Assembly: GCA_964574525.1 (NCBI GenBank) | Contig: CAZNOE010000002.1 | Span: 1 to 53,269 of the forward strand | Origin: an uncultured Bifidobacteriaceae bacterium | GTDB taxonomy: Bacteria; Verrucomicrobiota; Verrucomicrobiia; Limisphaerales; JADLHS01 | Reading direction: 5' to 3' | DNA length: 53,269 nucleotides | Shown here: positions 7,105-42,777 of the stretch, piece by piece | Layout of the letters: each line of letters opens with the position of its first letter | How positions within the stretch are numbered: position 1 is the first letter of the stretch | The notes under the pieces: model-generated | The model's database searches: none | Seen by the model: the letters and a program-made list of their open reading frames with translations, nothing else | Told to the model about the DNA's origin: nothing | Position numbers and translations under genes: made by a program

Positions 7105-8685
7105 TCAATCCAGCGGTTGTTTTTCGAAATCCGATTCTTCCACCCAACCAGCCTTCAATTTCTCGCCCCTCATGTAGCGCTCGTGGAAGTTCCGCTGGCC
7201 GGCGTTGGCGTAAGGGTATTGCTCGAACACCTCGCCCCGTCCGTACATCCTTGGGTCCTCTTGCGCCTTGAGTTCGCTGACCATTTGCTGCTCCAGTTCG
7301 CGCTTGCGATCGGCGAATGACGGGTCAGTGGCCAGGTTGCTCACACAGTCCGGATCCCGCTTCAGGTCGTAAAGTTCTTCCGAGAGACGCTTGCCGAAAC
7401 AGAGCGCCCAATGCGGATCGGCCATGTTCTTGCGGTGGGCGTCTAGGATGAAGGTCTTCGTGGCACCGGCGTCGCAGTTGAGATAGCCGGTTTCGGGGTT
7501 GCCCGCAGGCCAGCGGTTCGTCTCGTAGTTCCGGACGTAAAGCAGGTCGCCCTTGATGATGCCGCGAATCGGGTAGCCCCAATCGTGTGGGCGGCCGACA
7601 TCATGCCGTTCTTTGCCAATCAGGACGTGGTCGCGCGCCGGGTTCAAGGTACCGGTCTTTTCGGAGAACAGTATGTCCGTGAGACTGCGCCCGGCGGCGG
7701 CGGGCATGCCGGTTTGCGCCCATTTCAATCCTGCCAGCTCGATGAAAGTGGGGGCGAGGTCAATGAAACTCACGATGTCGCGCACCTTGCGGCCCGGCTG
7801 CTTCAGCCCGTTCTTCCACATCATCGCCAGCGGGATGTGATTGGACGGTTCGTAGGCCTGGCCTTTGACCCGCGGGAACGGCATGCCGTGATCGGACGTA
7901 ACCACCACCAGGGTGTTGTCGAGCAGGCCGCGCTTCTCCAACTCGGCGAGCATCCGGCCAAGATGCCGGTCGAAATGCTCCACCTCGAAGGCGTAGTCCA
8001 GCATGTCGTTCCGGACCGTTTCGTTATCGGGCCAGCAGGCGGGTACGCGGTCCACATCGGTGGTCTTCTTGCCGCCTTTCGTCACGCCGGAGCCGTACTC
8101 ATAGCCACGATGCGGCTCGAGCGCACCATACCAGAAGCACCACGGCTTGCCCTTGGGAGCGGCGTCCAGGAAGTCGGTGAAGTTCGCGGCGTAGTCGCTC
8201 GGCCCAATCCCGGAGGCGGACGGTTTCGCGGTGCGGGCATTGAACGCCTTGCCAGTCATCTGGCGCGGCTTGCCGACGGTGTTCGTGGCGATGCCGGGCG
8301 CCCAGCCTTTCGTGGTATGACCGGCGAACCAACCCTGCTCGTCGAGCGCCTCGAAGAAGGTTTTGAACTCGGGTGGAAAGTACGGGACGTGGTTCGCCGC
8401 CGCCTTGAGCTGCCACGAGTTGCGACCGGTAAGAATACAGGCCCGGGACGGCGCACACTTGGCATTCGGCGTGTAGGCGTGCGAGAAGAGAATGCCCTGG
8501 TCCGCGACCCGGTCGAACGCCGGCGTTTTGACCCACTTGCAACCGTAAGCGCCAGCGTGGCCATAGCCCCAATCGTCGGCGATGGCAAAGAGGATGTTGA
8601 GACGTGGGTGCTCGCCCGCCCCGACCGTGAGAGATGACCAGGCGAGCGCCCCCAGCAGCAACGACAAAAGTGATTTCGATTTCAT
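7105..8685 (-). CDS. Formylglycine-dependent sulfatase (arylsulfatase-type, S1 family), secreted
   Basis: ORF 7105..8880 trimmed to ATG 8685 ([23 protein letters not shown] signal). Contains [12 protein letters not shown] (C-x-P-x-R formylglycine motif), ADDWGYG near the N-terminus and [11 protein letters not shown]. The start overlaps the upstream stop as ATGA (8682-8685). Confidence 0.9.
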
Positions 8686-10010
8686 CCGAGGGACCAAGGT
8701 TTGCGGTATTCGCGGCCCAGCAGCTTGCTGGCTTCGGTGTCGCCGATAATGACTTCGCGCTGCGCGTCCCATCGGATCTTGCGCCCGGTCCACATGGCGA
8801 TCAAACCGAGGTGGCCGGGCACTGCCGAATGATGCGCCGTCTCGACCGGCGTGATGGTGGGCTTTCGGGACTTCACGCAATCGAGGAAGTTGCGCTGGTG
8901 CCCCGGGGACTCGTAGAGCTTCACCTTGCGCTGCTCGTCCGGCAGTGAAGTCATTTCAGTCCAGGCCTCGTTCGGGGCGCTGAAGGCACCGCGCGTCACA
9001 TGCACCCAGCCGTCCGTGCCGATCCATTTCGTGCCGCCTTTGATGTCGGGATATCCACCCGCAATGACCATTTCGATGTTGTTCGGGTATTTCAGGTTGA
9101 GGCGGTACTTGGTGCAAGTATTCCACACGGCGTCCTTCGGCGGGAATTCGCCAACGCCCTCGATCTCGCTTGGGCCGTTGTCATCGAAACCCAAACCCCA
9201 GTGCGCGATATCCACGTGATGCCCCACCCAGTCGAGCAACTGCCCGCCACCGGTGTTGTAGTTCCAGCGCCAGTTTTTGTGTACCTGGCATTCCCGGTAA
9301 GGCATCACCTGTGACGGCCCGATCCAGGTCTCGTAATCCAGCTCGACCGGTGGCGCGGTGATTTGGTTCTTGTCCTTCGTCTTGGCGAAATCGTTGTGCC
9401 CGGCAGGCAGGCCGACTTCCACCCGCGTGATCTTGCCGATCAATCCATTGCGGACGATTTCCGCCGCCTTGTGAAAGTTTCGCTGCGATCGCTGCCACGA
9501 GCCGGTCTGCCAGATCCGTTGGTTTTGCTGCACGGCCTTCACCATCGCCTGCTGCTCCGCAATGGTCCGGGCGAGCGGCTTTTCGCCAAAGATATCCTTC
9601 TTGTTCCGGGCCGCCTCGACCGCCGCCAGGCAATGCCAGTGATCCGGCGTCGCCATCATCACCGCATCAATGTCCGGGCGGGCACACAAATCGCGATAAT
9701 CGGCATAAGCTTTGCAATCCTGGTTCTTGTAATGGCCGTTGACCTTCTGCACGGCGTTGGACAGATGCGTCCTGTCCACGTCGCAGACCGCCACGACTTG
9801 ACAATCCGTCTCACGCAGAAACGCGCCCAGGTTCGATCCGCCCTGCCAACCGCAGCCGATCATGCCCAAGGTGATGCGATTGGACGGCGCCGGTTTGCCA
9901 GCCTGCCCAAACACGCTGGACGGGAGAATGGTGGGCGCGGCCACCGCCAAGGCAGCGGTGGCGAGAAACTGGCGACGATTGAAGCGAACTGAGTCTGGTT
10001 TTGTTTTCAT
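8682..10010 (-). CDS. Gfo/Idh/MocA-family NAD(P)-dependent oxidoreductase with twin-arginine (Tat) signal
   Basis: N-terminus [26 protein letters not shown] (RRxFL Tat motif). Rossmann motif [11 protein letters not shown], plus ATPDHWH and GEKPLA typical of the family. Confidence 0.85.
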
Positions 10011-27585: not shown

Positions 27586-28578
27586 TCAAAACGCATCGGC
27601 GTCGCGGTAGGCCTGAATGACGGCTTGTTCGCCGGGCTTTCCCGGTTGGGAGTTGCCGTGTTCCATGCCGATGACGAAGTCGCGGTTCTCCCGCTTGCTC
27701 CGGTCGTGGATGTATTTAAAAACACTCCGATAGTTTATCTCGCCCGTGCCCGGCTCCTTGCGACCCGGATTGTCGCCAGCTTGGAAATAGGCGATTTCGT
27801 CCCAGCAGCGCTCGATGTTCGGGATCAAGTTTCCTTCGGTGATTTGCTGGTGATAGATGTCGAACAGCATTTTGCAGGACGGGCTGTTGACCGCCTTGCA
27901 GATGGCGTAGGCCTGCGGGGAGTGGCGCAGGAACACGCCGCCATGGTTGGTTTCCCAATTGAGGGATTCGAGCACCATCGTGAGCTTGTGCGGCTCGAGG
28001 ATTGCGGCGCAGCGTCGTAGCAACTCGATGACATTCGCGGTCTGATAACCTTCCGCAAGCCGCGCGCCGCCGTATTTGTTCCACTTGTCGTTCTGGGCCT
28101 GCTGGTCCACCGACCCGGGCACAACCGTGAACCACTGTGCGCCCACACGTTTCGCAACGTCCACCGCGTCGCGAATCTTTTTCAAAGCCTCCTCGCGCTT
28201 TTCTTCGTTGGTGGTGGCGAACACCGGCTCGTCGAAATTGGCATACGCGACGAACACGCCCATCTTCATGCCCAGGTCGCTAAGGGTCTTGCCGATTTTC
28301 TCCTGCATCTCGGGCGACTGACCGGGCAACCCATTGTCTTCCCAACCCGTGAAACCCTGGTCGGCGGCGAACTTGATCTGGTCAATCACATTGTCACCCG
28401 CGCTGGCCTTGAACATGCCCGGATGCGGCCCGTAGCGGAGTTTGAACTTTGGAGATTGTCCAGCAGCGTTCTGGGCACGCGCGCGAAACGTCGGTCCAAG
28501 GAAGAGGCCGGTGGCGGCGGTGAGAATCGCCGTGCGGGAAATGAAACTGCGGCGGTTCAGTAGATTGGTGTTGTTCAT
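27586..28578 (-). CDS. Hydroxypyruvate-isomerase-like (Hyi/OtnI-type) xylose-isomerase-fold TIM barrel with Tat signal
   Basis: N-terminus MNNTNLLNRRSFISRTAILTAATG (RRxFI Tat motif). QGFTGWEDNG and IAYFQAGDNPGRKEPGTGEINYRSVFKYI closely resemble the Hyi-family C-terminal signature. Confidence 0.8.
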   Translation of the reverse strand: MNNTNLLNRRSFISRTAILTAATGLFLGPTFRARAQNAAGQSPKFKLRYGPHPGMFKASAGDNVIDQIKFAADQGFTGWEDNGLPGQSPEMQEKIGKTLSDLGMKMGVFVAYANFDEPVFATTNEEKREEALKKIRDAVDVAKRVGAQWFTVVPGSVDQQAQNDKWNKYGGARLAEGYQTANVIELLRRCAAILEPHKLTMVLESLNWETNHGGVFLRHSPQAYAICKAVNSPSCKMLFDIYHQQITEGNLIPNIERCWDEIAYFQAGDNPGRKEPGTGEINYRSVFKYIHDRSKRENRDFVIGMEHGNSQPGKPGEQAVIQAYRDADAF

Positions 28579-30765: not shown

Positions 30766-30775
30766 AGGTGATGGT

Positions 30776-32597: not shown

Positions 32598-34850
32598 TCA
32601 GCCCTTCTCGGCGATGGCGATGTCGAGTTGCGGCCCTGAATCGTCGAACCAATCAAACGTTTTCTGGCCGGAGATAAACAGCTTGTTTGTGTAGCTGGCA
32701 TCCAATTCCTTGGCGTAATTGCGCCAAGCGGTCAGGGCGTTCTTCAGGTGGGCGACAGCGTCTTTTTGGTGCTGGCTCACGCCTGTCTTGCGGAATAAAC
32801 CGAGTGCCACCGCTCCGCGAATCTTGGCGGCGTAATACTGCCCGAGCCGAGCTTGCGTCCGGATGTCGCCGAGAGTCTCGCGGAGTTCCACATTTCCGCC
32901 ATTACTCACACCGGAAATCGTTGTCAGCGCTTTTTCGGCCAGCTCGTCCAGTTGGGTTGCCACCTGCAAGGGAGTGGTCCCCGAGGTCTTCTTCTGGGAA
33001 ACAAAATCAGGAATGCCGATGATTCCCGAGCCTTCCATGCCGCCCCATCGTTCATCCAGGAAAATATTTACGGTATGGAAACCCTGAATGCTCTTGTCCA
33101 ACAGGTTGCCTCTGCATCCTTCGACCCACCACATAAAGTCCCACGGGACGTACCGAGTTCTGTTCACAAGCGGTATGATTTGGGAGGCAGACTGCCAGGA
33201 ATCATATAGAGCGGTGGCGTCCGAAAGCTGGAAGCGATGTTTGATGAGTCCTTTGAGCAATTCGGGAGAGGTCTCGGGATCGTATCCGAGCCTTCCCCAC
33301 AAGAGGAAGGAATACCAGTGCTTGTCGTTTTCCAACTGCCGGGGCGAAGTGGGATTCTTGCTCGCGCTTTCCCTGCCCCAGCAAAATCTGTCTGAACCCC
33401 AGACGTAGCCCGCAGTCCTGCCGTCGCCGGGAAAGTTCAAGACTGCCTGCTTCACATACTCCGGGTCGCCCCAGCGCACGAGGAAGATGTCGTCATTCCG
33501 GAGATTCCACCAAGTCTTCATTCCGGCTGGCGTCACATCCAGCACATCCTTTTTCGCAAAAGGCGGATTCGGCGCAGAGTAAAGGCGCGCTTTCGAGTAT
33601 TTGTATTCCAAGTCAAAGCCATCGGGTAGTTTATTGAAACGATTGCCGATATACTTGAAATCCGTCAGCCAGTAGCGGTGGACGAACCCGATCTTGCGGT
33701 CGGGATTCATCTTCTTGTAGTCGAGGATGCCTTCGCCATAAACATCCCAGCACCATTGCTCCTTGAAGTCGTGATCTTTGTTCTTGTCGCCAAAATTTTC
33801 TCCGGGGCACATGCCCAAGCCGGCCAACTTCGGGTAAGTGAGAAAAAGCTGCGTGACGGCTTTGCGGATATAATCCTTGGTGATCGCGTTGGTCGGGCTG
33901 TCCGTCAAACCATACTTCGTGTCTTCGCTGCCATACACATGGATGTTCCAGACATACCACCAAACCTCGATTCCCCGGTCTTGCGCGTAGGCCATGACCT
34001 TTTGCCAGAAAATTATTTTTTCGGCATGGGTCATTTTCTTGATCAGTTCCCCACGCTTGTCATAGACATCATCCAAGGCCACATCCTCGTAGCCGGGCAC
34101 TTTGACCAGGGTAGGAAAAGGATGCCGGTTCCAAAGACTGAGAACGTTGTAACGCTGCTTGGTTATGGTATCGAGATACTCCTTCCAGAAGTTCAAATCC
34201 CACACGTGTTTGAAGTTTTCCCGACCGGATGTTCCATTGTCATCGAAACTAGGCTGTCGTTTATCAAGCGGTATGTTGAATTTAATTCCCCGCTTCGCGA
34301 TGTAAGGCTTGTGGTCGCCATTAGCGACGTCTGCGATTGAGCCGGCAGACGCAATCTCGCCGATGTCTATGCCGCCATACATCGCGCCGACGCGATCACC
34401 GCCGATGGCCCAAAAACCCTTCTTGCCGCCGTTATAGGTCTTCCTGAGAGCGTAGGTTTCCTCGCCCATAGTGCCGGGTTTTTGGCCGCCGCGGGTCTCC
34501 AACAGTCGCAGCACAGGTTGAGAGGTGTTCTTGGCGATAACCACATAACACGTATCCGGCGCAGCGGGCATTTCAGCGAATGTTTTCAGAGTAGCCGGAT
34601 TGTGGCCGATCGAGCTGAGGGTCTTCTGAAGCTCCCGGGCGGAGAATTCAATGGAGGGTTCCGTGTTGTCATAATAGACCACAACGGCTTCGCGCGAAAT
34701 CCTGGTCGGAACGGCTGCCTTTTTCTCCCCCGGAGTCGGTGTCGTGGTTGCACTGATATTGGCAGCGGCAGCCGTTGTGTTTGCTCCTGCCATTCCTCCT
34801 GCTATCAAGAGTAGCAGAAATGCCTGCAGTAGTCTGTTTGTCGTTTTCAT
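32598..34850 (-). CDS. Secreted glycosidase-like family protein, paralog 7
   Basis: 750-aa ORF with signal peptide MKTTNRLLQAFLLLLIAGGMAGA. Motifs GGDRVGAMYGGIDIGE, KRGIKFNIPLD, KQRYNVLSLWNRHPFPTLVKV, YVWNIHVYG, CPGENFG, RNDDIFLVRWGDP, LWGRLGYDP, YYAAKIRGA. Confidence 0.88.
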   Translation of the reverse strand: MKTTNRLLQAFLLLLIAGGMAGANTTAAAANISATTTPTPGEKKAAVPTRISREAVVVYYDNTEPSIEFSARELQKTLSSIGHNPATLKTFAEMPAAPDTCYVVIAKNTSQPVLRLLETRGGQKPGTMGEETYALRKTYNGGKKGFWAIGGDRVGAMYGGIDIGEIASAGSIADVANGDHKPYIAKRGIKFNIPLDKRQPSFDDNGTSGRENFKHVWDLNFWKEYLDTITKQRYNVLSLWNRHPFPTLVKVPGYEDVALDDVYDKRGELIKKMTHAEKIIFWQKVMAYAQDRGIEVWWYVWNIHVYGSEDTKYGLTDSPTNAITKDYIRKAVTQLFLTYPKLAGLGMCPGENFGDKNKDHDFKEQWCWDVYGEGILDYKKMNPDRKIGFVHRYWLTDFKYIGNRFNKLPDGFDLEYKYSKARLYSAPNPPFAKKDVLDVTPAGMKTWWNLRNDDIFLVRWGDPEYVKQAVLNFPGDGRTAGYVWGSDRFCWGRESASKNPTSPRQLENDKHWYSFLLWGRLGYDPETSPELLKGLIKHRFQLSDATALYDSWQSASQIIPLVNRTRYVPWDFMWWVEGCRGNLLDKSIQGFHTVNIFLDERWGGMEGSGIIGIPDFVSQKKTSGTTPLQVATQLDELAEKALTTISGVSNGGNVELRETLGDIRTQARLGQYYAAKIRGAVALGLFRKTGVSQHQKDAVAHLKNALTAWRNYAKELDASYTNKLFISGQKTFDWFDDSGPQLDIAIAEKG

Positions 34851-35200: not shown

Positions 35201-36475
35201 TTACGCTTTGCGTTCACTCTTTTGATACGTGGCGGCTTTCAACCACTCCGGATTGACCTTTACGCCCCAGCCCGGGCCGGCTTCGAAGCTCGCCCGGCCG
35301 TCCTTCACAAACGGGCTCGGGCCAAAAAGCTGGGTTGCCTGCTGGTTCACGCCGCCAGGTTCGATGCTCCATTCCATCATCGGGCCGGCGTTTGGCAGGG
35401 CGGCAAAGAGGTGCAGCGTGAACAGCGTGACCATTGAATGATTCGCCGAGTGTGGCACAACGGTTTTGCCCGCGAGTCCCGCCAGCAATCCCACCCGCCA
35501 GGTGCGCGTGATGCCACCGAGGTAAAGCACGTCCGGCTGCACGATGTCCACGGCGTTCATCCGAATCATGCGCCGCCATTGCGCGAGGTCGTTGTCCTGC
35601 TCGCCGCCCGCGACCTGGATTTTCAATGCACCGGCGACTTCCGCCGTCCATTCCAGCTCCCAATACGGACACGGCTCTTCGTAGTGGTTGTAGCCCTGAT
35701 CTTCCAGGATGCGGCCGATGGCGATGGCGCGCGGCGGGGTGAAGCCGCTGTTGGCGTCGGCCTTGAGTGCGACGGCGTCGCCGAGCGCCTTGCGCACCGT
35801 GGGAATGATTTTTTCACTGCGACCCGGCGCGGCGTCCAAGTCATGGCCATTTTCCTTGGCGACGCGGATTTTGAATCCGCGAAAACCCTCAGTGTCGCGC
35901 AGTTTCACCAGTCGTGCGGCTTCGTCCTCCGGCGAAATCGTCCGGCTCATGCTCGAACCATAGGCGGGCAGCGGACGCACCTTGCCGCCGAGCAATTCCG
36001 CGACGGGTTTCTGTTTGATCCGGCCATAAAGATCCCAGATGGCGGTGTCCACGCCGCCAATCGCGCGGCAGACGAACGACCAGGGGAACTTGTGGTTGGC
36101 GTCAATGCAGTGATCCACAATAGCGTCAATGTCCGCCGGGTCTTTGCCCAGCACCAGCGGCGCGATCTTGCGGTGGAGCGTCAGCACGCTGATCTCAGTT
36201 TCATAGGTGGCAATCTGGCCGTAGCCTTCCTGACCGTCAGCAGTCGTCACGCGCACGATGGCGAACATGCCTTGGTTGAACGTCTCGATCTTCTGGATGA
36301 TGCGGCCCGGTTCGATGACGCGAAACTCGGTGTAATCGTCAGGTCGCCCGTGGTAGGAGTAACTGCGCTTGACGGGCACGGCAACAGACTCCGCCGCCGA
36401 ACCGATTCCTGGCAATCCAATGGCCGCGCCCGAAGTGAGCACGGTCGCATTCTTCAAGAATTCCCGGCGTTGCAT
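35201..36475 (-). CDS. Enolase-superfamily enzyme (mandelate racemase/muconate lactonizing enzyme family, acid-sugar-dehydratase-like) with Tat signal
   Basis: The ORF-track start 36481 is TTG; the first ATG is 36475, giving MQRREFLKNATVLTSGAAIGLPGIGSA (near-consensus RREFLK Tat motif). Metal-ligand and catalytic motif order FKIRVA, KADANSGF, YEEP, AGGEQD, IVQPDV, VPHS. Confidence 0.85.
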   Translation of the reverse strand: MQRREFLKNATVLTSGAAIGLPGIGSAAESVAVPVKRSYSYHGRPDDYTEFRVIEPGRIIQKIETFNQGMFAIVRVTTADGQEGYGQIATYETEISVLTLHRKIAPLVLGKDPADIDAIVDHCIDANHKFPWSFVCRAIGGVDTAIWDLYGRIKQKPVAELLGGKVRPLPAYGSSMSRTISPEDEAARLVKLRDTEGFRGFKIRVAKENGHDLDAAPGRSEKIIPTVRKALGDAVALKADANSGFTPPRAIAIGRILEDQGYNHYEEPCPYWELEWTAEVAGALKIQVAGGEQDNDLAQWRRMIRMNAVDIVQPDVLYLGGITRTWRVGLLAGLAGKTVVPHSANHSMVTLFTLHLFAALPNAGPMMEWSIEPGGVNQQATQLFGPSPFVKDGRASFEAGPGWGVKVNPEWLKAATYQKSERKA

Positions 36476-36536
36476 ATTCAATCCTAGATTTGCTTAAGGT
36501 TGCATTCGATTCAGGTGCGGTAAGCCAATGACCGAC

Positions 36537-37151
36537 TCATTGGCCTAGCGGCCTCAACTTAATATTGCGAAACTTGACCATCCCTTGCCCCTGGAACTGT
36601 TGCAATCCGATCGGCCCGAACTTCTCACGATCATCGTGTGTATCCACAACCACGCGACCATCGAACCGCACCACCAAATGATTGCCCTGCGCGGTGATGT
36701 GGTAGCTGTTCCAGCGGCCAGCCGAGCGGATGTCGCCCTGCCGCAGAGCGATTTCGTTGATGCTGCCGGTCGGCCATTTCAAGTGCGCGTCGTAGATGTT
36801 CACTTCATACGCATTGGTTGCGGAGATTGGACCACTGATCGGACAACGCAGGAACACGCCGCTGTTTGCCACCGCGTCCACCCAGAAATCCACTTTCAAC
36901 TCGAAGTTGTCATAGCTCTTCGCCGTGCAGAGAAAGCCCGGGCCAGTGCCAGCGCGATACACGATGGCCCCGTCCACCACGTCCCAACGCGCCTGGTCGC
37001 GCGGCGTCCAGCCGGCCAGGCTTTCGCCGTCAAACAACGGCACCCAGCCGGCCTGTTTTTCGACGGGTGTGAGTTGGTTCAACTTCAGATCGGTCGTGGC
37101 GCAACCCGCGAGCAACCCCAGCGCACAGAGCGAGAGATATTTGAGGTTCAC
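36537..37151 (-). CDS. DUF1080 domain lipoprotein
   Basis: GTG start at 37151. Lipobox (M)NLKYLSLCALGLLAGC. Motifs WVPLFDGESLAGWTP ... GPIGLQQFQGQGMVKFRNIKLRPL. Confidence 0.75.
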   Translation of the reverse strand: MNLKYLSLCALGLLAGCATTDLKLNQLTPVEKQAGWVPLFDGESLAGWTPRDQARWDVVDGAIVYRAGTGPGFLCTAKSYDNFELKVDFWVDAVANSGVFLRCPISGPISATNAYEVNIYDAHLKWPTGSINEIALRQGDIRSAGRWNSYHITAQGNHLVVRFDGRVVVDTHDDREKFGPIGLQQFQGQGMVKFRNIKLRPLGQ

Positions 37152-37179
37152 GATTGAAGAGTGGATGTCTGGTCGTGGT

Positions 37180-39480
37180 TCATGGTGATTTCGCCGGGCG
37201 ATTCGTGCTGGTGATTTCCGCTGGAATGTCCGTGTCCACCTGGGCTTGGATGCCCGCGATGTCCACGGCCGTCAGTCCCATGCGCGTGAGCACTTGCTTG
37301 ACGTATTGCGAGGACCATTGCACGGCGTATTGCTTCCAAAAATTCGAGGCCGCAATGAGATGTTTCCGTGCCTGGGCATGATGGGTGGCTTCACCGCCGG
37401 TTTCATATCGGTAGAGCGCCACCGCACCGCGAATTTTTGCCGCGTAATAATTTCCGAGCGCCGCCATCGCCTTGATGTCGCCCAACGTCTGGCGCAGTTC
37501 CTTGTTTGTTCCCGCGTCGAGTCCGGCGATGCTGCCTAGTCCGCGCTCGGCGAACTGTTGCAGTTGATCCGCCACCTGTTCGGGAGTCATGGGCCCGTCA
37601 GGTTTCGCGCCGTCCACAAAATCCTTCACCGACATCAGCAACGGTCGGTCGCCGTCAGCGCCTGCTGGCATCGGACGCCAGCGGGGCTTGATGAAATTCT
37701 GCACGCTCTCAAATCCCGCGCTGCTCCAGCAGGCCTCGGGATACCATTGGAAATCGAGCGCGCCCCAGTAGAACCGCGTGACCAGCGGAATGATTTTGGA
37801 AACCGACGCCCAACCGGAAAAAAGTTTCTCCGCAGAAACCGTGGGGAAACGTTCGCCTATAATCGCCTCAAAGCGGCTGTTGGGAATCGTCGGATCGTAG
37901 GCGAGCCGCCCATAGAGCAGGAAGTAATACCACATCTTCTCGATGACCAGTTGCCGCGGCGCATCCGGCTCGGTGCTCAAGTATTCGCGCCCCCAGGTGT
38001 AGCCGTCCGGGCCGATATAGATGCCCGCGATTTTCGACAGGTCCGGCAGGTTGGCGAGATAAGCCCGCGCAAAATCGGGATCGCCCCAGCGCAGGTAATA
38101 CATGTCGTCGTTCCGCACGGTGAGGAGGATTTTGCTCCCGGCGGGGATGTTCTGGAACCAGTCCCTGCGGTGGATGAACAGCGGCTTGGTGGAAGAATGC
38201 ATGTGTGCCTGGGAATACTTGAAACTGAACAACAGGCTCGATTCTGCATTCGTGCGCCCGGGCAACGCCGAGAAAACATCAATGATCTGCTTGAGATCCG
38301 CCTCATGCGCGCGATGGATGAGGGTGATCTTGCGGTCCGGCACGTTGAAGGGGCTGGCGGGATTTTTCGCGTCAGCCATCGCATCGGAAACGCCCAGTCC
38401 GTAGGTGTCCCACGCCCATTGTTCTTTCTGTTCGTCGTTGCTGCCCCCCATGTTCTCACCGGTGGTCAGCCCCACGCCCGCCAGCAATGGATAGGTGTTG
38501 CACAGGGCGCGGACGGATTTCCGGAAATAATCCCTCGTGATCGCGTTGGTGGGCGAGTCCGTGATGCCGTAACCGCTGGACTCCGTGCCATACACAAAAA
38601 TGTTCCACGTCATGACGTAACATTCGATGCCGCGATCCTTGGCGTATTGCATGACCCAGCGCCAGAAAGCGATCTTTTCCTCGATGGTCATCTTTTTTAG
38701 GGTCGTCAGTTCCCAGGAGGGATCATACATTTTCATGCCCCTGAGGGTGGCATCCCACATCGGCCCGGCTCTCCGCTTCACATCCGCGAGCGCCACGTTG
38801 GGATACTCCGGCACGCGCACCATCGAGGGGAACGGATGCAGGCTCCAAAGCGAAAGCAGATTGTAGCGATGCCGCGCCATCTCATCCAACATCCCGGCCC
38901 AGAAGTTGGTTTCCCACATATTGGCAATGTTGGCCTGCGCGGAGTCTGAATCATCCGAGTAACTCGGTGTGCGCGCGTCCAGCGGGATGTTGAACTTAAT
39001 GCCGCGTTTCTCCAGATACGGATTGGTCTGGCGGTTCGTCACGCTGCCCAGGCCATTGGCCAGTTGCAGGGATTCGGCGAGTTCCAACCCGCCATACATT
39101 GCGCCTGCCGCGTCATTGCCAATGACCCACCAGTTCGTCGCCGCGCCGCTGGCGACGAACTGGATGGCGTAGCCCTCGCGCAAAATTCCCTTCGTCGAGG
39201 GTTGACCGGGCAGCTTGGCGTCCTCGGTGGTGAGGATGATACGGACGGTTTGCTTCGCCTGCGCCGGATCGCCGGGCGGCAACACCGTCACCGTATAACC
39301 GTTTGCCGTCAGCGCCGTCTTCACATCGCTTGCGCCAAAGGCAATCGGACCGACCTTCGCATCATACATCAGGGCAGCGGGCGTTTGCGCGCGGGCCAGA
39401 GTGACAGCCACCACGGCAGCAAACAGGACTGCTGCCAATCCTGCGCTGAATGATTTAATGCGTTTTGACTTTCTGATCAT
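37180..39480 (-). CDS. Secreted glycosidase-like family protein, paralog 8 (closest to 11111..14179 but lacking its C-terminal extension)
   Basis: 766-aa ORF with signal ...AAVLFAAVVAVTLARA. Motifs GNDAAGAMYGGLELAESL, KRGIKFNIPLDARTPSYSDDSDSAQANIANMWETNFW, RNDDMYYLRWGDPDFARAY, etc. Confidence 0.9.
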   Translation of the reverse strand: MIRKSKRIKSFSAGLAAVLFAAVVAVTLARAQTPAALMYDAKVGPIAFGASDVKTALTANGYTVTVLPPGDPAQAKQTVRIILTTEDAKLPGQPSTKGILREGYAIQFVASGAATNWWVIGNDAAGAMYGGLELAESLQLANGLGSVTNRQTNPYLEKRGIKFNIPLDARTPSYSDDSDSAQANIANMWETNFWAGMLDEMARHRYNLLSLWSLHPFPSMVRVPEYPNVALADVKRRAGPMWDATLRGMKMYDPSWELTTLKKMTIEEKIAFWRWVMQYAKDRGIECYVMTWNIFVYGTESSGYGITDSPTNAITRDYFRKSVRALCNTYPLLAGVGLTTGENMGGSNDEQKEQWAWDTYGLGVSDAMADAKNPASPFNVPDRKITLIHRAHEADLKQIIDVFSALPGRTNAESSLLFSFKYSQAHMHSSTKPLFIHRRDWFQNIPAGSKILLTVRNDDMYYLRWGDPDFARAYLANLPDLSKIAGIYIGPDGYTWGREYLSTEPDAPRQLVIEKMWYYFLLYGRLAYDPTIPNSRFEAIIGERFPTVSAEKLFSGWASVSKIIPLVTRFYWGALDFQWYPEACWSSAGFESVQNFIKPRWRPMPAGADGDRPLLMSVKDFVDGAKPDGPMTPEQVADQLQQFAERGLGSIAGLDAGTNKELRQTLGDIKAMAALGNYYAAKIRGAVALYRYETGGEATHHAQARKHLIAASNFWKQYAVQWSSQYVKQVLTRMGLTAVDIAGIQAQVDTDIPAEITSTNRPAKSP

Positions 39481-39482
39481 AT

Positions 39483-40814
39483 TTATTGAGCCGTAGAAAT
39501 GGTTACTTTGTGAGCAAGCGAATTATACCCTGTGGCGTCTTCCCAAACATCTTTGTTCGCCAAGCGAATCGAATACTCCGGTCGGTTACGGAGGCTGGTT
39601 GCCGGATCAGGGAGGTTCAAATAAACGGCATACACTCCTTCAGGGGTGGAAGCCGGGATAAGCGCCGCCACTTCCACGGCAACGGATGAATCGGTCATGC
39701 ACCAGCGCCGAGGGTCATTGGTGAGCTTGACGATGATTTCGTTTTTGGTCGCAGTATTCCGGAAAACCAGTTCGCAGTCGCGTTTGTTGTAAATTTTACC
39801 CCAGCCCACATTCATGAGGTTGATGGTTCCGGAGAATTTACTTCCGGCTTTGACGGCATCCGGCAGTTGGGCGCTGGTCATCGTTATCCGGTAGCCGAGG
39901 CCCTTCGCGATCGTGTCGTAGCACCCCGCGTTTCTCCACCCTTGGATCACACCTTTATGAAAGGTGCTGTTAATGGTATCCCAGTGCATTCGCTTCAGGT
40001 CGGCCATGGCCTTTTCACACTCCGAATAGGAGGATACGCCACAAGATTCGCCGCCTTGGGGAACATACCGGTTATCCTGACTCAAATAGGTCTTCTGCCA
40101 CTCGATCGATTGCGCGCCCTGATACGTTCCTCGGTCGCCCACGTCATAGCCGATACAGTCATTATGGCTGCCGGTGCGGGCTTGATAGGATTCATTGAAG
40201 GCCGAATCCGGCCCGAGCGGAACATCACCGAAAATATCGCGCTTATGAAAGTTGTATCTCATTGCCACCATGCGACCAGGCACGGCATCGAGAAGTTTGA
40301 ACAGAACCGCTTTGCGGCTCTCCGTGTTACTGATGCTGTTTGTCTCTTTGCAACTCCAGAAGTGCCATTCACCCCACCGGCCGATCAAGCCGGCTTCGAT
40401 GAACGCAATAATGTCCGAATTCGTTCGCAGAACCGGAGTGAGCTGTTCGATGTGCTTGAGAATCCGCTCCAGCGGCGGAGTTTTGCATGCGCCGAAATTG
40501 TAAGCAAAACGCGGAATCAGTTTTGCACCTTCCCGGCGTAAGACCGCAGCATCGCTATTGATTCCGTCAAAAACCGACTGGGGAAGCACATCGGTGTCGC
40601 AATACGGCTCCAGGATGTAGTACTTGCGAGCCAGCGTTATCCCCTCCTTTCGCGCGGCCCGCAAGGCCTCGGCGGAAACGCTGGTGATGTAAAATCCCCT
40701 TTCCGGATTGGGAAAATTCGAGGAATCCTCCTGATAGGTGAGCGTGGCAGCACTTGCGATGGCGGTTGTCGCGAGCAGTATGCACAAGCCGACCGAGAAT
40801 TCATTGAATCGCAT
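39483..40814 (-). CDS. DUF4874/DUF4832-type protein (glycosidase-like TIM barrel + beta-sandwich), secreted
   Basis: ORF trimmed to ATG 40814 (MRFNEFSVGLCILLATTAIASA signal). NPERGFY near the N-terminus, GRWGEWHFW, LGYRI; assigned from memory of these DUFs. Confidence 0.6.
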   Translation of the reverse strand: MRFNEFSVGLCILLATTAIASAATLTYQEDSSNFPNPERGFYITSVSAEALRAARKEGITLARKYYILEPYCDTDVLPQSVFDGINSDAAVLRREGAKLIPRFAYNFGACKTPPLERILKHIEQLTPVLRTNSDIIAFIEAGLIGRWGEWHFWSCKETNSISNTESRKAVLFKLLDAVPGRMVAMRYNFHKRDIFGDVPLGPDSAFNESYQARTGSHNDCIGYDVGDRGTYQGAQSIEWQKTYLSQDNRYVPQGGESCGVSSYSECEKAMADLKRMHWDTINSTFHKGVIQGWRNAGCYDTIAKGLGYRITMTSAQLPDAVKAGSKFSGTINLMNVGWGKIYNKRDCELVFRNTATKNEIIVKLTNDPRRWCMTDSSVAVEVAALIPASTPEGVYAVYLNLPDPATSLRNRPEYSIRLANKDVWEDATGYNSLAHKVTISTAQ

Positions 40815-40840
40815 GAACACTCCCTGGTTTGTCAAAGGGT

Positions 40841-41932
40841 TCACGCGCCCAGATCCCAGCGCCGGAAATAGAGTCCCTGGCGGACAATGGGCAGGGTGCG
40901 TTCCTCCAAAGCCTGCATCTGCTCCCGGCTCAAGGGGACAAAGTTCGCCGCGAATTTCACGTCTTCTTCGAGCTGCGCGACGTTGTCCACGCCCACGATG
41001 TTGGTGCTGACCGGCAGGGAAGAATTGTAGGCGAACGACTCGGCCATGGTGATCGTGCCGGGCTTGGTCGTGCGCATGCGCTCCGGCTGCTGCTCCAACG
41101 GATCGGGCTTCCAGGTGGAGAGCATGCGCCCGCGCGTGGCGACCTTCATGCCGATGATGCCCATCTGCTTTTCCAAGGCGGTCGGCAGCAGGTGGTCAAT
41201 GAAACTGAGGTAATGCCGGTCCGCCGCGTTCACCGCCATCAGGATGCAATCCAGTTCGGCGCGTTGAATCATTTCGCGCAGCACCTTCGGCTCGAAATGG
41301 CCGGTCACACCGATGAAGCGGACCAACCCCTCGGACTTGGCCTTCTGAAACGCCTTCAACGCACCATCGGGCGCAAGCAACCGGTCCACGTCCGCCATCT
41401 TCTGCAGATTGTGAATCTGCCAGAGATCAAGATGGTCGGTGTGCATTCGCTTGAAGCTGGTGTCCAGGTGCGCCATCGCGCCGTCGTAGTCGCGCTTCCC
41501 GGTCTTCGAGGCGAGAAACACCTCGCGCCGCCGGTCACGCACCACCAGGCCGACGTGCTCCTCGCTCGCGCCGTCGCCGTAGACGTTGCTGGTGTCGAAA
41601 TAGTTCACGCCCAGATCCAGCGCCCGGTTCATGATCTCAACCGACAACTTCTCATTCCCCTTGATCTCAATGGCGGCCTGGCAGCCGAGGCTGAAGATGC
41701 CCACGCGGAAACCGGTCTTGCCGAGATTGCGCATCGGCATGGCGGCGGCGGTGCGCGGATTGAAAGGCAAGGGGCGTTGGTTACCCGTCGGAGCGACCGC
41801 TGCGCCCGCCGGCTCCTGCGCGCTGGCGGTTGCGGCCCGGCTGGCGGCAATCGCCATCGAAGCGGCGAGCGTCGTGCCGAGAAATTCCCGGCGACTCCAG
41901 GTTTTGTTGGAAATGTCGTCTGGTGTTTTCAT
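40841..41932 (-). CDS. Aldo/keto reductase with Tat signal
   Basis: ORF trimmed to ATG 41932, giving MKTPDDISNKTWSRREFLGTTLAASMAIAASRA (RREFL Tat motif). AKR motifs LGKTGFRVGIFSLG, GVNYFDTSNVYGDGASEEHVG, LASKTG, FIGVTGH. Confidence 0.8.
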   Translation of the reverse strand: MKTPDDISNKTWSRREFLGTTLAASMAIAASRAATASAQEPAGAAVAPTGNQRPLPFNPRTAAAMPMRNLGKTGFRVGIFSLGCQAAIEIKGNEKLSVEIMNRALDLGVNYFDTSNVYGDGASEEHVGLVVRDRRREVFLASKTGKRDYDGAMAHLDTSFKRMHTDHLDLWQIHNLQKMADVDRLLAPDGALKAFQKAKSEGLVRFIGVTGHFEPKVLREMIQRAELDCILMAVNAADRHYLSFIDHLLPTALEKQMGIIGMKVATRGRMLSTWKPDPLEQQPERMRTTKPGTITMAESFAYNSSLPVSTNIVGVDNVAQLEEDVKFAANFVPLSREQMQALEERTLPIVRQGLYFRRWDLGA

Positions 41933-41985: not shown

Positions 41986-42777
41986 TCATGGCGGATTGGA
42001 ACGCGGGGCGGAAGGCTTTGACTCCGAAGCGCTTCCTTGATCCAGTTCGCGCACAAAAATGTCTTTGAACCGGATGCGCAGCTGATCCTTCATGTGCAAT
42101 TGCAGTGCGAAATGACCGGTGCGTCCGACGTTCTTTTCGCGGTGCGCCGCGTTGTCCAAGATGCCCGTGCCGTCCCAATCCGCACAGACCACGCCGTTGA
42201 CGACGGTTTTGATGTGCGTTCCCCGGGCGATGATTTTCAGGTCATTCCAGCCGTTGCCATCGTCCCAAAACTTGAACACATGGCCGGCGGGCTTGAACTC
42301 AGCGTCAATCTTCGAGTCCGGCAGGCTCGGCGAAACCCAGCGCTGCTCGCCGCGTGTCTCATCGTAGATGAGGCCAGTGCGCCACGCCTGATTCGCGGGC
42401 GGATGGATGTCCACCTGCGGCCCATTCATCCAGCCGTTCTTGTCGTTGGTGTCGTAACGGCTACGAAACTGGATCCCGCTGTTGCCGGGCGAATTGGTGT
42501 GAGCCTGAAACTTCAACTTGAGTTCAAAATCGCCATACTCTTTTTCGCTGACGAGCCAGCAATAGTCGTGGTCCGGCCGACCAAGCGAATCGCACAGGAC
42601 CGTGCCAGCGTTAACCTGCCAGAAGTATTTGCTCTGATCCCCCGGTTGGCATTGGACGGTCCAGCCGGAAAGATCCTTCCCATTGAACAGGGAGATCCAT
42701 CCGCTTTCAGCGCCGACACAGGTGGCAACTGCGACCTTTGCCAGTGACAGCACGAATAGGACTCTGTTTATTTTCAT
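41986..42777 (-). CDS. DUF1080 domain protein, secreted
   Basis: Signal MKINRVLFVLSLAKVAVATCVGA. Motifs WISLFNGKDLSGWTV ... GHFALQLHMKDQLRIRFKDIFVREL. Confidence 0.75.
   Translation of the reverse strand: MKINRVLFVLSLAKVAVATCVGAESGWISLFNGKDLSGWTVQCQPGDQSKYFWQVNAGTVLCDSLGRPDHDYCWLVSEKEYGDFELKLKFQAHTNSPGNSGIQFRSRYDTNDKNGWMNGPQVDIHPPANQAWRTGLIYDETRGEQRWVSPSLPDSKIDAEFKPAGHVFKFWDDGNGWNDLKIIARGTHIKTVVNGVVCADWDGTGILDNAAHREKNVGRTGHFALQLHMKDQLRIRFKDIFVRELDQGSASESKPSAPRSNPP

What the first reader, a model, noticed from the sequence alone, without database searches (positions are those of the whole stretch)
35201..41932. Twin-arginine signals on an enolase-superfamily enzyme and an aldo/keto reductase
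MQRREFLKNATVLTSGAAIGLPGIGSA (36475 downward) and ...SRREFLGTTLAASMAIAASRA (41932 downward) are near-consensus Tat leaders. They sit on enzyme classes that are classically cytoplasmic: MR/MLE-type acid-sugar dehydratases/cycloisomerases and NADPH-dependent AKRs. With the two other Tat enzymes in the window, four folded or cofactor-bearing sugar-modifying enzymes appear to be exported. How a nicotinamide-dependent AKR or Gfo enzyme would be recycled in the periplasm is unclear; tightly bound cofactor and redox-neutral chemistry are one possibility.
Basis: partly seen in the sequence, partly recalled or inferred. Interest (0 to 1): 0.6.

Follow-up and report, generated by a model that had tools for sequence, protein, structure and literature searches.

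The report
Exported nickel-type reductase and sugar-acid dehydratase
Two enzymes of normally cytoplasmic types carry genuine, widely conserved twin-arginine export signals, and the "aldo/keto reductase" has the signature of a covalently bound nickel-pincer cofactor rather than NADPH, which would explain how it could work outside the cytoplasm.

Summary
Observation confirmed. Both Tat leaders sit at the stated coordinates on an MR/MLE enolase-superfamily gene (35201-36475, minus) and an AKR gene (40841-41932, minus). In each family 111 of the 120 best homologue clusters keep an RRxFL leader. In this genome only 1 of 10 MR/MLE paralogues and 2 of 7 AKR paralogues have one. TatC is present.

The AKR's closest solved relative is NphT (PDB 9YEB, Nat Chem 2026). 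NphT is an AKR-fold enzyme that binds nickel-pincer mononucleotide covalently and moves hydride between sugars without NAD(P)H. The window AKR keeps the catalytic tetrad, the nickel-binding His (H212) and the tethering Lys (K263). The genome encodes LarB, LarC and LarE. All 12 AKR-bearing genomes I checked have LarC.

The enolase-family enzyme is a mandelate-racemase-subgroup member. Its active site is invariant in exported and leaderless relatives. The exported forms make essentially one clade. Its substrate is unknown; I infer a sugar acid.

The two enzymes recur together in three phyla but are separable.

This scan has noted exported nickel-pincer-type AKRs and Tat enolase/AKR pairs before on other DNA.

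Verdict: a new variant of known kinds. Cofactor use rests on sequence evidence only.

The parts
35201..36475 (-). Gene for a Tat-leader enolase-superfamily (MR/MLE) enzyme, 424 aa
   Evidence: ORF. Pfam MR_MLE_N plus MR_MLE_C. Closest PDB relatives 3tcs, 3u4f, 3t8q and 3t9p, E about 1e-125.
36395..36475 (-). Tat signal peptide of the enolase-family enzyme, residues 1-27. R3-R4 twin arginine; predicted cleavage after GSA27.
   Evidence: Sequence. The motif is kept in 111 of 120 homologue clusters.
36305..36361 (-). Conserved mature N-terminal arm (Y39-G57; family consensus YPYLGRTEDYxEFRIIEPG). It is absent from leaderless relatives, which start at MKIxSIETF.
35450..35872 (-). Active-site residues of the enolase-family enzyme: K202, R204, D240, E266, E292, D315, H342
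   Evidence: Invariant or nearly so in 24 exported and 61 leaderless relatives. D-E-E-D-H spacing is 26-26-23-27, as in mandelate racemase. Codons checked.
40841..41932 (-). Gene for a Tat-leader aldo/keto-reductase-fold enzyme, 363 aa; candidate nickel-pincer (NphT-like) hydride transferase
   Evidence: ORF. Pfam Aldo_ket_red. Best PDB match 9yeb_A. AF2 TIM barrel, pLDDT 84. Foldseek hits are AKRs.
41819..41932 (-). Tat signal peptide of the AKR, residues 1-38. S13-R14-R15-E-F-L; predicted cleavage after ASA38.
   Evidence: Pfam TAT_signal E 0.042. The motif is kept in 111 of 120 homologue clusters.
41735..41770 (-). Conserved mature N-terminal arm of the AKR (L55-P66, LPFNPRTAAAMP)
   Evidence: Nearly invariant in alignment A2. 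Modelled with pLDDT about 90 from residue 51.
41411..41596 (-). AKR catalytic tetrad: D113, Y118, K143, H174
   Evidence: Aligned to NphT D47, Y52, K75 and H106. Invariant in A2 and A3. Codons checked.
41297..41305 (-). T210-G211-H212, aligned to NphT T142-G143-H144 (H144 is the nickel ligand)
   Evidence: TGH is present in 120 of 120 clade-1 and 120 of 120 clade-2 homologues.
41144..41149 (-). M262-K263, aligned to NphT I199-K200 (K200 is the covalent thioamide tether of the cofactor)
   Evidence: MK is present in 119 of 120 homologues in each clade. It is absent from the five leaderless AKR paralogues of this genome.
8682..10010 (-). Tat-leader Gfo/Idh/MocA oxidoreductase ([17 protein letters not shown])
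27586..28578 (-). Tat-leader xylose-isomerase-like TIM-barrel protein (LNRRSFISRTAILTAATG)
36537..37151 (-). DUF1080 (3-keto-disaccharide-hydrolase family) lipoprotein between the enolase-family gene and a GH-like gene
41986..42777 (-). Secreted DUF1080 protein directly upstream of the AKR gene
37180..39480 (-). Secreted 766-aa glycosidase-like protein. It is one of three paralogues (with 32598-34850 and 28600-30957). Homologues flank the leaderless enolase relative in Paenibacillus.
32598..34850 (-). Secreted 750-aa paralogue of the glycosidase-like protein, directly downstream of the enolase-family gene
39483..40844 (-). Secreted DUF4874/DUF4832 protein; its start overlaps the AKR stop by 4 nt

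Best explanation
Both genes encode enzymes that fold in the cytoplasm and are exported by the Tat pathway to the periplasm of a verrucomicrobial glycan degrader. That the leaders are real and conserved is shown; export itself is inferred.

The 'aldo/keto reductase' is most likely a member of the NphT family of nickel-pincer AKRs. The proposed sequence of events, all inferred, is:
1. LarB, LarE and LarC make nickel-pincer mononucleotide in the cytoplasm.
2. The cofactor is tethered as a thioamide to K263, and H212 ligates the nickel.
3. The holo-enzyme, now carrying a covalent cofactor, goes out through Tat.
4. In the periplasm it passes hydride from one sugar to another, for example aldose to lactone while a second carbonyl is reduced. 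No NAD(P)H pool is needed.

The enolase-superfamily enzyme is a Mg2+-dependent mandelate-racemase-subgroup enzyme. Its general base is a His342-Asp315 dyad, and it has K202-x-R204 where racemases have K-x-K. It therefore most likely abstracts the alpha-proton of a sugar acid and dehydrates it. The sugar acid would be released by the neighbouring glycosidase-like enzymes or produced by oxidation in the periplasm. The keto-deoxy acid product would then be imported.

The two enzymes may act in sequence, but they are separable modules.
For: Leaders:
- Conserved in 111 of 120 homologue clusters of each family and in 119 of 120 of a second Tat-AKR clade.
- Specific to 1 of 10 MR/MLE and 2 of 7 AKR paralogues in this genome.
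- TatC is present.
- 41 Tat-type Gfo enzymes genome-wide show that exported cofactor enzymes are routine here.

AKR:
- The best PDB match is 9yeb_A, which is NphT. NphT binds NPMN covalently through K200 with H144 on nickel. It is inactive with NAD(P)(H) and disproportionates sugars to lactone plus alditol (PMC13524815).
- In the alignment D113/Y118/K143/H174 match the NphT tetrad, T210-G211-H212 matches T142-G-H144, and M262-K263 matches I199-K200. All are invariant in 33 and in 88 aligned homologues.
- 123 of the 150 nearest 50%-identity cluster representatives have both His and Lys, and most of those carry Tat leaders.
- In this genome only the two Tat AKRs have the Lys and His. The five leaderless ones have neither, and two of those keep the canonical GVSN motif.
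- LarB plus LarC (C194) and LarE (C802) are present.
- LarC is present in 8 of 8 AKR-bearing genomes of a 301-genome phylum sample (base rate 175 of 301) and in all 4 further AKR-bearing genomes from other lineages.
- Two sampled genomes with the Tat enolase but no AKR match also have no LarC match.

Enolase-family enzyme:
- Pfam and NCBIfam matches.
- Metal-ligand and base residues are invariant in exported and leaderless members, with mandelate-racemase spacing.
- Exported members form essentially one clade.
- Neighbours of exported members are enriched in Tat-type ORFs: 46 of 329 against 14 of 760.
- Tat-AKR neighbours occur in Acidobacteriota and in another lineage.
- Homologues of the window's glycosidase-like paralogues flank the leaderless relative in Paenibacillus.
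Against: - No biochemical data exist for either protein.
- Identity to NphT is only about 30% over about 206 residues, and the C-terminal third did not align.
- The mature AKR is about 325 aa against 291 for NphT. It keeps a G-x-x-x-x-Q-L-E-x-N-like beta8 region, which binds the AMP half of NAD(P) in canonical AKRs. A closed AMP tunnel was not tested. The Foldseek PDB copy predates 9YEB, so it could not rank it.
- No lar genes lie next to this AKR or three of its relatives.
- LarA homologues in the genome could account for LarBCE on their own.
- LarC is common in the phylum (58%), so the co-occurrence discriminates weakly and the genomes are not independent.
- The nickel-pincer cofactor is handled anaerobically in the NphT paper. 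Its stability in an oxic periplasm is unknown.
- The closest solved relatives of the enolase-family enzyme have no assigned function.
- Leaderless proteobacterial relatives sit beside GMC and DAO oxidoreductases, Liv-type ABC transporters and MocR regulators, not glycosidases.
- Only 3 distinct exported-enolase loci out of about 23 have an AKR within 10 kb.
- Two sampled genomes have the exported enolase without the AKR.
Confidence: 0.55

Rival explanations
1. The AKR is a conventional nicotinamide enzyme that carries a non-dissociable NAD(P) through Tat. It would work by ping-pong between two substrates, as Zymomonas glucose-fructose oxidoreductase does. The His and Lys would have another role.
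For: GFOR and the proposed BT2158 mechanism are precedents for Tat export with bound NAD(P) (PMC8121099). The catalytic tetrad is intact. The beta8 Q-L-E-x-N-like segment is retained. The top Foldseek hits are NAD(P)-dependent AKRs. No lar genes are adjacent.
Against: The canonical Ser-Asn that holds the nicotinamide carboxamide is replaced by Gly-His. The Lys sits exactly where NphT tethers NPMN, and both residues are invariant. NphT, the closest solved relative, shows no activity with NAD(P)(H). LarC was found in every AKR-bearing genome checked.
Confidence: 0.25
2. The leaders are annotation artefacts. Translation would start downstream and both enzymes would be cytoplasmic.
For: No experimental start-site data exist. 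Leaderless relatives of the enolase-family enzyme begin at an internal Met position (MKIxSIETF) in other phyla.
Against: The window enolase has no Met at that position (IQKIETF). RR, the h-region and the AxA site are conserved as protein in 111 of 120 clusters of each family, at 59-96% identity. The first in-frame AUG downstream in the AKR (M26) lies inside the h-region. A conserved arm follows each leader.
Confidence: 0.03
3. The enolase-family enzyme is not a dehydratase of a free sugar acid. It would be an epimerase, or a lyase-like enzyme acting at C5 of uronate residues in oligosaccharides, or an enzyme of a non-sugar carboxylate.
For: Alpha-proton abstraction is the only chemistry the superfamily guarantees. 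The closest solved relatives are unassigned. Proteobacterial relatives have non-glycan neighbours. Flanking glycosidase-like proteins resemble uronidase families only distantly.
Against: K-x-R in place of K-x-K leaves a single His-Asp base, which suits one-base elimination better than two-base racemisation (inference). The best-scoring named families are all acid-sugar dehydratases, though far below their cut-offs.
Confidence: 0.2

Closest known systems
NphT, NPMN-dependent hydride transferase of the AKR superfamily (Alicyclobacillus cellulosilyticus; PDB 9YEB; Semersky et al., Nat Chem 2026, PMC13524815)
   Same: AKR TIM-barrel fold. The catalytic tetrad, the nickel-ligand His in a T-G-H motif and the tether Lys after a hydrophobic residue are all at aligned positions. 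The genomic context is sugar-related. The host has LarB, LarC and LarE.
   Different: About 30% identity over two thirds of the protein. The window enzyme has a Tat leader, a conserved N-terminal arm and a conserved C-terminal tail (LPIVRQGLYFRRWDLGA). It is about 35 residues longer in mature form and is not next to lar genes. The paper does not mention export. No paper in the library pairs nickel-pincer with twin-arginine.
Glucose-fructose oxidoreductase of Zymomonas mobilis, and the proposed BT2158 of Bacteroides thetaiotaomicron (Gfo/Idh/MocA family)
   Same: A redox enzyme is exported by Tat with a pre-bound cofactor and does redox-neutral sugar chemistry in the periplasm (as cited in PMC8121099). 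This directly explains the window's Tat-Gfo enzyme (8682-10010).
   Different: A different fold (Rossmann), and non-covalent NAD(P). The AKR here carries the nickel-pincer signature instead.
Structural-genomics MR/MLE proteins 3TCS, 3U4F, 3T8Q and 3T9P (depositor names: 'racemase, putative' and 'mandelate racemase/muconate lactonizing enzyme family protein')
   Same: E about 1e-112 to 1e-125 over residues 59-421 with the same active-site residues. They belong to the same subfamily as the leaderless relatives found.
   Different: They lack the Tat leader and the YPYLGR arm. No function is published for them in the library searched.
Mandelate-racemase subgroup of the enolase superfamily: mandelate racemase, and L-talarate/galactarate dehydratase (2PP0)
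   Same: Two-domain architecture, D/E/E metal ligands and a His-Asp dyad with identical spacing.
   Different: Only E 1e-18 to 1e-28. The second Lys of K-x-K is Arg. The protein scores far below every NCBIfam equivalog cut-off, so it is not a member of any named dehydratase family.
Fungal D-galacturonate pathway (AKR-type reductase followed by L-galactonate dehydratase; recalled from memory, not tested here)
   Same: The pairing of an AKR-fold enzyme with a sugar-acid dehydratase acting on a uronic acid released from a glycan is the same logic I propose.
   Different: The fungal pathway is cytoplasmic, NADPH-dependent and eukaryotic. No sequence comparison was made.

Membership tests
Tat (twin-arginine) substrates | N-terminal S/T-R-R-x-F-L-K-like motif, a moderately hydrophobic h-region and an AxA cleavage site | tested here: met
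   The enolase leader has QRREFLK, an h-region and GSA|A. The AKR leader has SRREFLG, an h-region and ASA|Q. Both are conserved in 111 of 120 homologue clusters.
Tat (twin-arginine) substrates | Tat translocase present in the organism | tested here: met
   TatC at G000:C666, 180 bits.
Tat (twin-arginine) substrates | Export depends on tatC and on the RR pair | not testable with these tools
   This needs reporter fusions or fractionation.
NphT-like nickel-pincer AKRs | AKR (alpha/beta)8 fold with the catalytic tetrad D-Y-K-H | tested here: met
   Pfam PF00248. AF2 pLDDT 84 and Foldseek AKR hits with TM about 0.75. D113, Y118, K143 and H174 are invariant.
NphT-like nickel-pincer AKRs | Histidine that ligates nickel (NphT H144) | tested here: met
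   T210-G211-H212 matches NphT T142-G143-H144. HMMER placed a 2-residue gap after TG, and I read TGH as aligned with TGH. The motif is invariant.
NphT-like nickel-pincer AKRs | Lysine that tethers the cofactor covalently (NphT K200) | tested here: met
   K263 aligns with K200 at the end of the alignment. It is present in 119 of 120 homologues in each clade and is absent from the leaderless paralogues.
NphT-like nickel-pincer AKRs | Cofactor cavity capped so that the AMP half of NAD(P) does not fit | not tested
   The tools returned no model coordinates and no docking, and 9YEB is not in the Foldseek PDB copy.
NphT-like nickel-pincer AKRs | Host makes the cofactor (LarB, LarE, LarC) | tested here: met
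   LarB 312 bits and LarC 345 bits on C194; LarE 273-304 bits on C802. LarC is in 12 of 12 AKR-bearing genomes checked. The genes are not adjacent to the AKR.
NphT-like nickel-pincer AKRs | Binds NPMN (+450 Da) and transfers hydride without NAD(P)(H) | not testable with these tools
   This needs a biochemical assay.
Enolase superfamily, mandelate-racemase subgroup | N-terminal capping domain plus C-terminal barrel domain | tested here: met
   PF02746 and PF13378. PDB relatives.
Enolase superfamily, mandelate-racemase subgroup | Three carboxylate metal ligands at the ends of strands 3-5 | tested here: met
   D240, E266 and E292 are invariant in 85 sequences. Their spacing of 26 and 26 matches mandelate racemase D195/E221/E247 (the racemase numbering is from established literature).
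Enolase superfamily, mandelate-racemase subgroup | His-Asp dyad at strands 7 and 6 | tested here: met
   D315 and H342 are invariant, with spacing 23 and 27 as for D270/H297.
Enolase superfamily, mandelate-racemase subgroup | K-x-K motif at strand 2 | tested here: inconclusive
   The motif is K202-x-R204. Arg occurs in 83 of 85 sequences and Lys in 2. The first Lys is kept and the second is replaced.
Named acid-sugar dehydratases (arabinonate, gluconate/galactonate, talarate/galactarate, ManD) | Score above the NCBIfam equivalog cut-off | tested here: not met
   The best score is 132 bits against a cut-off of 650. All matches are far below their cut-offs.

The most novel reading that the evidence does not exclude
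NphT-like nickel-pincer AKRs are predominantly exported enzymes. About 80% of the nearest 50%-identity clusters carry Tat or Sec leaders. If so, they would be the first nickel-pincer enzymes known to work outside the cytoplasm, and a new class of Tat cargo with a covalent organometallic cofactor. They would give PVC bacteria and Acidobacteriota an NAD(P)-independent way to oxidise or disproportionate sugars in the periplasm. In some lineages the products would feed an exported mandelate-racemase-type sugar-acid dehydratase.
Probability: 0.45. Interest if true: 0.8.

Novelty: new variant of a known kind. Interest (0 to 1): 0.62.

Why it matters
The periplasm has no NAD(P)H pool, so an exported 'NADPH reductase' looks paradoxical. 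A covalently tethered nickel-pincer cofactor would resolve this. It has to be installed in the cytoplasm, which requires Tat export, and it can shuttle hydride between substrates.

If that is right, the two-compartment view of nickel-pincer biochemistry would widen, and a new cofactor class would be added to the Tat cargo list. It would also point to periplasmic, redox-neutral sugar processing as a common trait of abundant soil and water glycan degraders.

The exported enolase-family clade gives a functional handle, through its glycan context, on a structural-genomics family that has had structures but no function since 2011.

Tried and rejected
- Single-sequence AF2 of the AKR failed (pLDDT 33). 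It was repeated with an 88-sequence alignment.
- Foldseek against the PDB could not rank 9YEB, because that library stops at April 2026.
- Pfam TAT_signal did not score the 38-residue enolase leader.
- A literature search for 3TCS, 3U4F, 3T8Q and 3T9P returned only unrelated uses of those strings.
- Searches pairing Tat with AKR, or Tat with the enolase superfamily, found nothing relevant.
- I looked for lar genes next to the AKR in three relatives and next to larBC in this genome. None were found.
- I tested whether the enolase and AKR are an obligate pair. They are not. An AKR lies within 10 kb in 3 distinct loci only. Genomes G213 and G225 have the exported enolase but no AKR match.
- I considered a ManD-type assignment, as in earlier scan notes on other genomes. 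I rejected it here because the ManD models score lower and in two pieces, and the active site is of the mandelate-racemase type.
- I considered an MLE-type cycloisomerase. I rejected it because the muconate cycloisomerase model scores only 66 bits against a cut-off of 335, and a His-Asp dyad is present.
- The MFS protein at 49615-50868 came up in my Tat-motif scan. It is a false positive; it is a membrane protein.

Full report
**The observation.** On the minus strand an ORF from the ATG at 36475 to 35201 encodes a 424-aa protein. It begins MQRREFLKNATVLTSGAAIGLPGIGSA|AE. A second ORF from the ATG at 41932 to 40841 encodes a 363-aa protein that begins MKTPDDISNKTWSRREFLGTTLAASMAIAASRAATASA|QE. 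The longer upstream extension of the second ORF overlaps the preceding DUF1080 gene, whose stop is at 41986, so 41932 is the sensible start. Pfam assigns MR_MLE_N plus MR_MLE_C to the first protein and Aldo_ket_red to the second. Both leaders have the RR-x-F-L core, an uncharged Ala/Gly-rich h-region and a small-x-small cleavage site.

**Is it more than chance?**
- Searching 5.8 billion proteins, 111 of the 120 best clusters for each protein carry the motif at the N-terminus, down to about 59% identity. They come from Verrucomicrobiota, Planctomycetota, Acidobacteriota and others. Most of the rest are visibly 5'-truncated calls.
- In the window's own genome (7.3 Mb, 82% complete) only 1 of 10 MR/MLE paralogues and 2 of 7 AKR paralogues have a leader.
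- TatC is present.
- A crude genome-wide scan finds about 100 strict and 300 loose Tat-like N-termini, 41 of them on Gfo/Idh/MocA enzymes. Exported cofactor enzymes are therefore routine in this organism.
- The two other Tat enzymes in the window are a Gfo enzyme (8682-10010) and a xylose-isomerase-like TIM-barrel protein (27586-28578).
- The second Gfo gene (48584-49837) has no leader.

**Context.** The window is a glycan-utilisation island. It holds a sulfatase, three DUF1080 proteins, ThuA, two DUF5060 proteins, DUF4874/DUF4832, a GH27-like enzyme and three paralogous 750-785-aa glycosidase-like proteins with only distant GH67N and alpha-galacturonidase-model similarity. Cytoplasmic sugar-acid genes follow: a DUF1537-type kinase, an MFS transporter, an Iso_dh-family dehydrogenase and a glycerate kinase. 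Source names on homologues place the organism among Opitutales-like Verrucomicrobiota.

**The AKR: closest relative.** Its best match among solved structures is 9yeb_A (E 7e-27), ahead of AKR11C1 and the L-galactose dehydrogenases. 9YEB is NphT (Semersky et al., Nat Chem 2026, PMC13524815). The paper reports that:
- NphT is an AKR-fold enzyme that binds nickel-pincer mononucleotide (NPMN) covalently through K200.
- H144 sits on the nickel, and the enzyme keeps the AKR tetrad D47/Y52/K75/H106.
- It is inactive with NAD(P)(H).
- It transfers hydride between sugars, giving lactone plus alditol, in a redox-neutral reaction.

**The AKR: cofactor signature.** SEQRES index equals author number plus 3. 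I checked this on D47, Y52, K75, H106 and T142. With that offset the alignment gives the following matches:

| Window AKR | NphT |
|---|---|
| D113 / Y118 / K143 / H174 | D47 / Y52 / K75 / H106 (tetrad) |
| T210-G211-H212 | T142-G143-H144 |
| M262-K263 | I199-K200 |

HMMER put a two-residue gap after TG. Reading TGH against TGH is my judgement. All of these residues are invariant in alignments of 33 and 88 homologues, which include a second Tat-AKR clade only 35-38% identical. TGH occurs in 120 of 120 homologues and MK in 119 of 120, in each clade.

Of the 150 nearest 50%-identity representatives from 1.8 billion proteins, 123 have both His and Lys. Among the 123 full-length representatives, 113 have both residues. 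93 of those 123 have a Tat motif by my regular expression. By eye, a further three or four have variant RR motifs and two have Sec or lipoprotein signals. About 22 are leaderless.

Inside this genome the signature tracks export perfectly. The two Tat AKRs (C2 and C81) have Lys and His. The five leaderless paralogues have neither, and two of them keep the canonical GVSN motif.

**The AKR: cofactor supply.** The genome encodes LarB and LarC side by side on C194 and LarE on C802. It also has LarA homologues.
- In a 301-genome sample of the phylum, LarC occurs in 175 genomes. It occurs in all 8 genomes with an AKR match at E <= 1e-40.
- Four further AKR-bearing genomes from other lineages all have LarC. 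So does a fifth genome that carries the exported enolase.
- Two sampled genomes that have the exported enolase but no AKR match also have no LarC match.
- These genomes are not independent and LarC is common, so this is consistency, not proof.

With an 88-sequence alignment AF2 gives a confident TIM barrel (pLDDT 84). The conserved arm LPFNPRTAAAMP is ordered in the model. Foldseek returns AKRs, but that PDB copy predates 9YEB.

The NphT paper never mentions signal peptides, periplasm or export. No paper in the library pairs 'nickel-pincer' with 'twin-arginine'.

A cofactor that is synthesised by cytoplasmic LarBCE and attached covalently explains why the protein would need Tat, since it must be exported folded and loaded. 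It also explains how the enzyme could turn over where there is no NAD(P)H, by hydride shuttling between substrates. For the Gfo enzyme the established precedent suffices. GFOR is exported by Tat with non-dissociable NADP, and BT2158 is proposed to act the same way in a periplasmic 3-keto-glycoside route that uses a DUF1080 hydrolase (PMC8121099; see also bioRxiv 10.1101/2024.03.25.586180).

**Weaknesses of the nickel reading.** Identity to NphT is only about 30% over two thirds of the protein. The C-terminal third did not align and retains a beta8 Q-L-E-x-N-like segment. No test of the AMP tunnel was possible. No lar genes are adjacent. The cofactor's stability in an oxic periplasm is unknown.

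**The enolase-family enzyme: relatives.** Its closest solved relatives are four structural-genomics proteins, 3tcs, 3u4f, 3t8q and 3t9p (E 1e-112 to 1e-125). They begin at the window protein's residue 54-60, so they have no leader. I found no paper on them. It scores far below every named dehydratase model: the best is 132 bits against a cut-off of 650.

**The enolase-family enzyme: active site.** K202, R204, D240, E266, E292, D315, H342 and E368 are invariant or nearly so in 24 exported and 61 leaderless relatives. The D-E-E-D-H spacing of 26-26-23-27 equals that of mandelate racemase D195/E221/E247/D270/H297. This makes it a mandelate-racemase-subgroup enzyme with a His-Asp base and K-x-R in place of K-x-K. 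A single base favours elimination (dehydration) over racemisation. That is an inference.

**The enolase-family enzyme: phylogeny.** A scan of one genome per species found 597 relatives, and I kept the best 80.
- Those from Verrucomicrobiota, Planctomycetota, KSB1 and one Bacteroidota MAG carry Tat leaders.
- Those from Pseudomonadota, Chloroflexota, Bacillota, Poribacteria and some Phycisphaerae start directly at MKIxSIETF.
- On a tree of the core domain, 23 of the 24 exported sequences fall in one group. Branch support is 81-91, so it is not starred.
- That group contains one secondary loss, in Chthonomonadaceae, where the YPYLGR arm is kept.
- There is one separate gain, in an Armatimonadota sequence.
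- In total this is three changes against about 21 expected for shuffled labels.

**The enolase-family enzyme: neighbours.**
- Neighbours of exported members are enriched in Tat-like ORFs: 46 of 329 against 14 of 760. They include Tat-GHL6-like proteins, Tat-Gfo enzymes, Tat-sulfatases and Tat-AKRs.
- Leaderless proteobacterial relatives sit beside GMC and DAO oxidoreductases, Liv-type ABC transporters, MocR regulators and aldehyde dehydrogenases.
- In Paenibacillus the leaderless gene lies in an operon with GH42, two ABC permeases and two homologues of the window's glycosidase-like paralogues (23% identity over about 680 residues, E 2e-17). This ties the subfamily to that uncharacterised glycosidase-like family across phyla.

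**Do the two enzymes work together?** A Tat-AKR of the second clade, also with the His/Lys signature, lies 1.5-5 kb from the exported enolase gene in an acidobacterial MAG and in another lineage. Chemically the order is attractive. NphT-type oxidation of an aldose or uronate gives a lactone and then an acid, which is the substrate class of mandelate-racemase-type dehydratases. The window also has a candidate acid transporter and a glycerate kinase.

The pairing is not obligate, however. Only 3 distinct exported-enolase loci of about 23 have an AKR nearby. Contexts of AKR relatives vary. Two sampled genomes have the enolase without the AKR. I give a shared pathway about 0.3.

**Earlier notes of this scan.** Notes on other genomes report Tat ManD-like enolase plus Tat-AKR pairs, and exported nickel-pincer-type AKRs wired to Fe-S proteins. 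I reached NphT independently through the PDB search, before reading those notes. They agree with my reading but are not independent evidence.

**Verdict.** The most likely explanation is a Tat-exported nickel-pincer hydride transferase (probability about 0.6) together with a Tat-exported mandelate-racemase-type sugar-acid enzyme of unknown substrate. This is a new variant of known kinds. It is worth a bench test because the decisive experiment is simple: a +450 Da adduct that depends on K263.

Noticed in passing
window 28600-30957, 32598-34850, 37180-39480 (minus strand): Three secreted paralogues of 750-785 aa have no Pfam family above threshold. They show only weak GH67N similarity and a far-below-cut-off match to the alpha-D-galacturonidase model. 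Homologues (23% identity, E 2e-17) flank the leaderless enolase relative in a Paenibacillus ABC-transporter operon, so this looks like an uncharacterised glycosidase family functionally tied to the enolase subfamily.
   Followed up: partly
G000:C81:3545-4459 (minus strand), outside the window: The same genome has a second Tat-leader AKR (MRIKRREFLTRSALGVGAALLP). It also has the Lys (GMKI) and His at the NphT cofactor positions.
   Followed up: partly
G000:C194:2471-4389 and C802:1035-1940; phylum sample: larB and larC are adjacent in a housekeeping-like context, and larE lies elsewhere. LarC is found in 175 of 301 sampled genomes of the phylum, a high rate that nickel-pincer users other than LarA might explain.
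   Followed up: partly
window 40841-40900 (AKR C-terminus) and 41735-41770: This AKR clade has two conserved additions that the second Tat-AKR clade lacks: an N-terminal arm (PFNPRTxxAMP) and a C-terminal tail (TLPIVRQxLYFRRWDLGA). Their role is unknown. By analogy with the GFOR N-terminal arm they might cover the cofactor or mediate oligomerisation.
   Followed up: no
L009 and P0066 (Chthonomonadaceae): These enolase relatives sit inside the exported clade and keep the YPYLGR arm but have lost the Tat leader. This looks like a secondary return to the cytoplasm.
   Followed up: partly
whole genome G000: About 41 Gfo/Idh/MocA paralogues, 7 sulfatases and 4 xylose-isomerase-like proteins carry Tat-like leaders in an 82%-complete genome.
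   Followed up: partly
L095:8808-12296: In an Opitutaceae MAG the orthologous Tat-AKR sits between two URO-D-family (uroporphyrinogen-decarboxylase-like) genes. This context is quite different from the glycan locus here.
   Followed up: no
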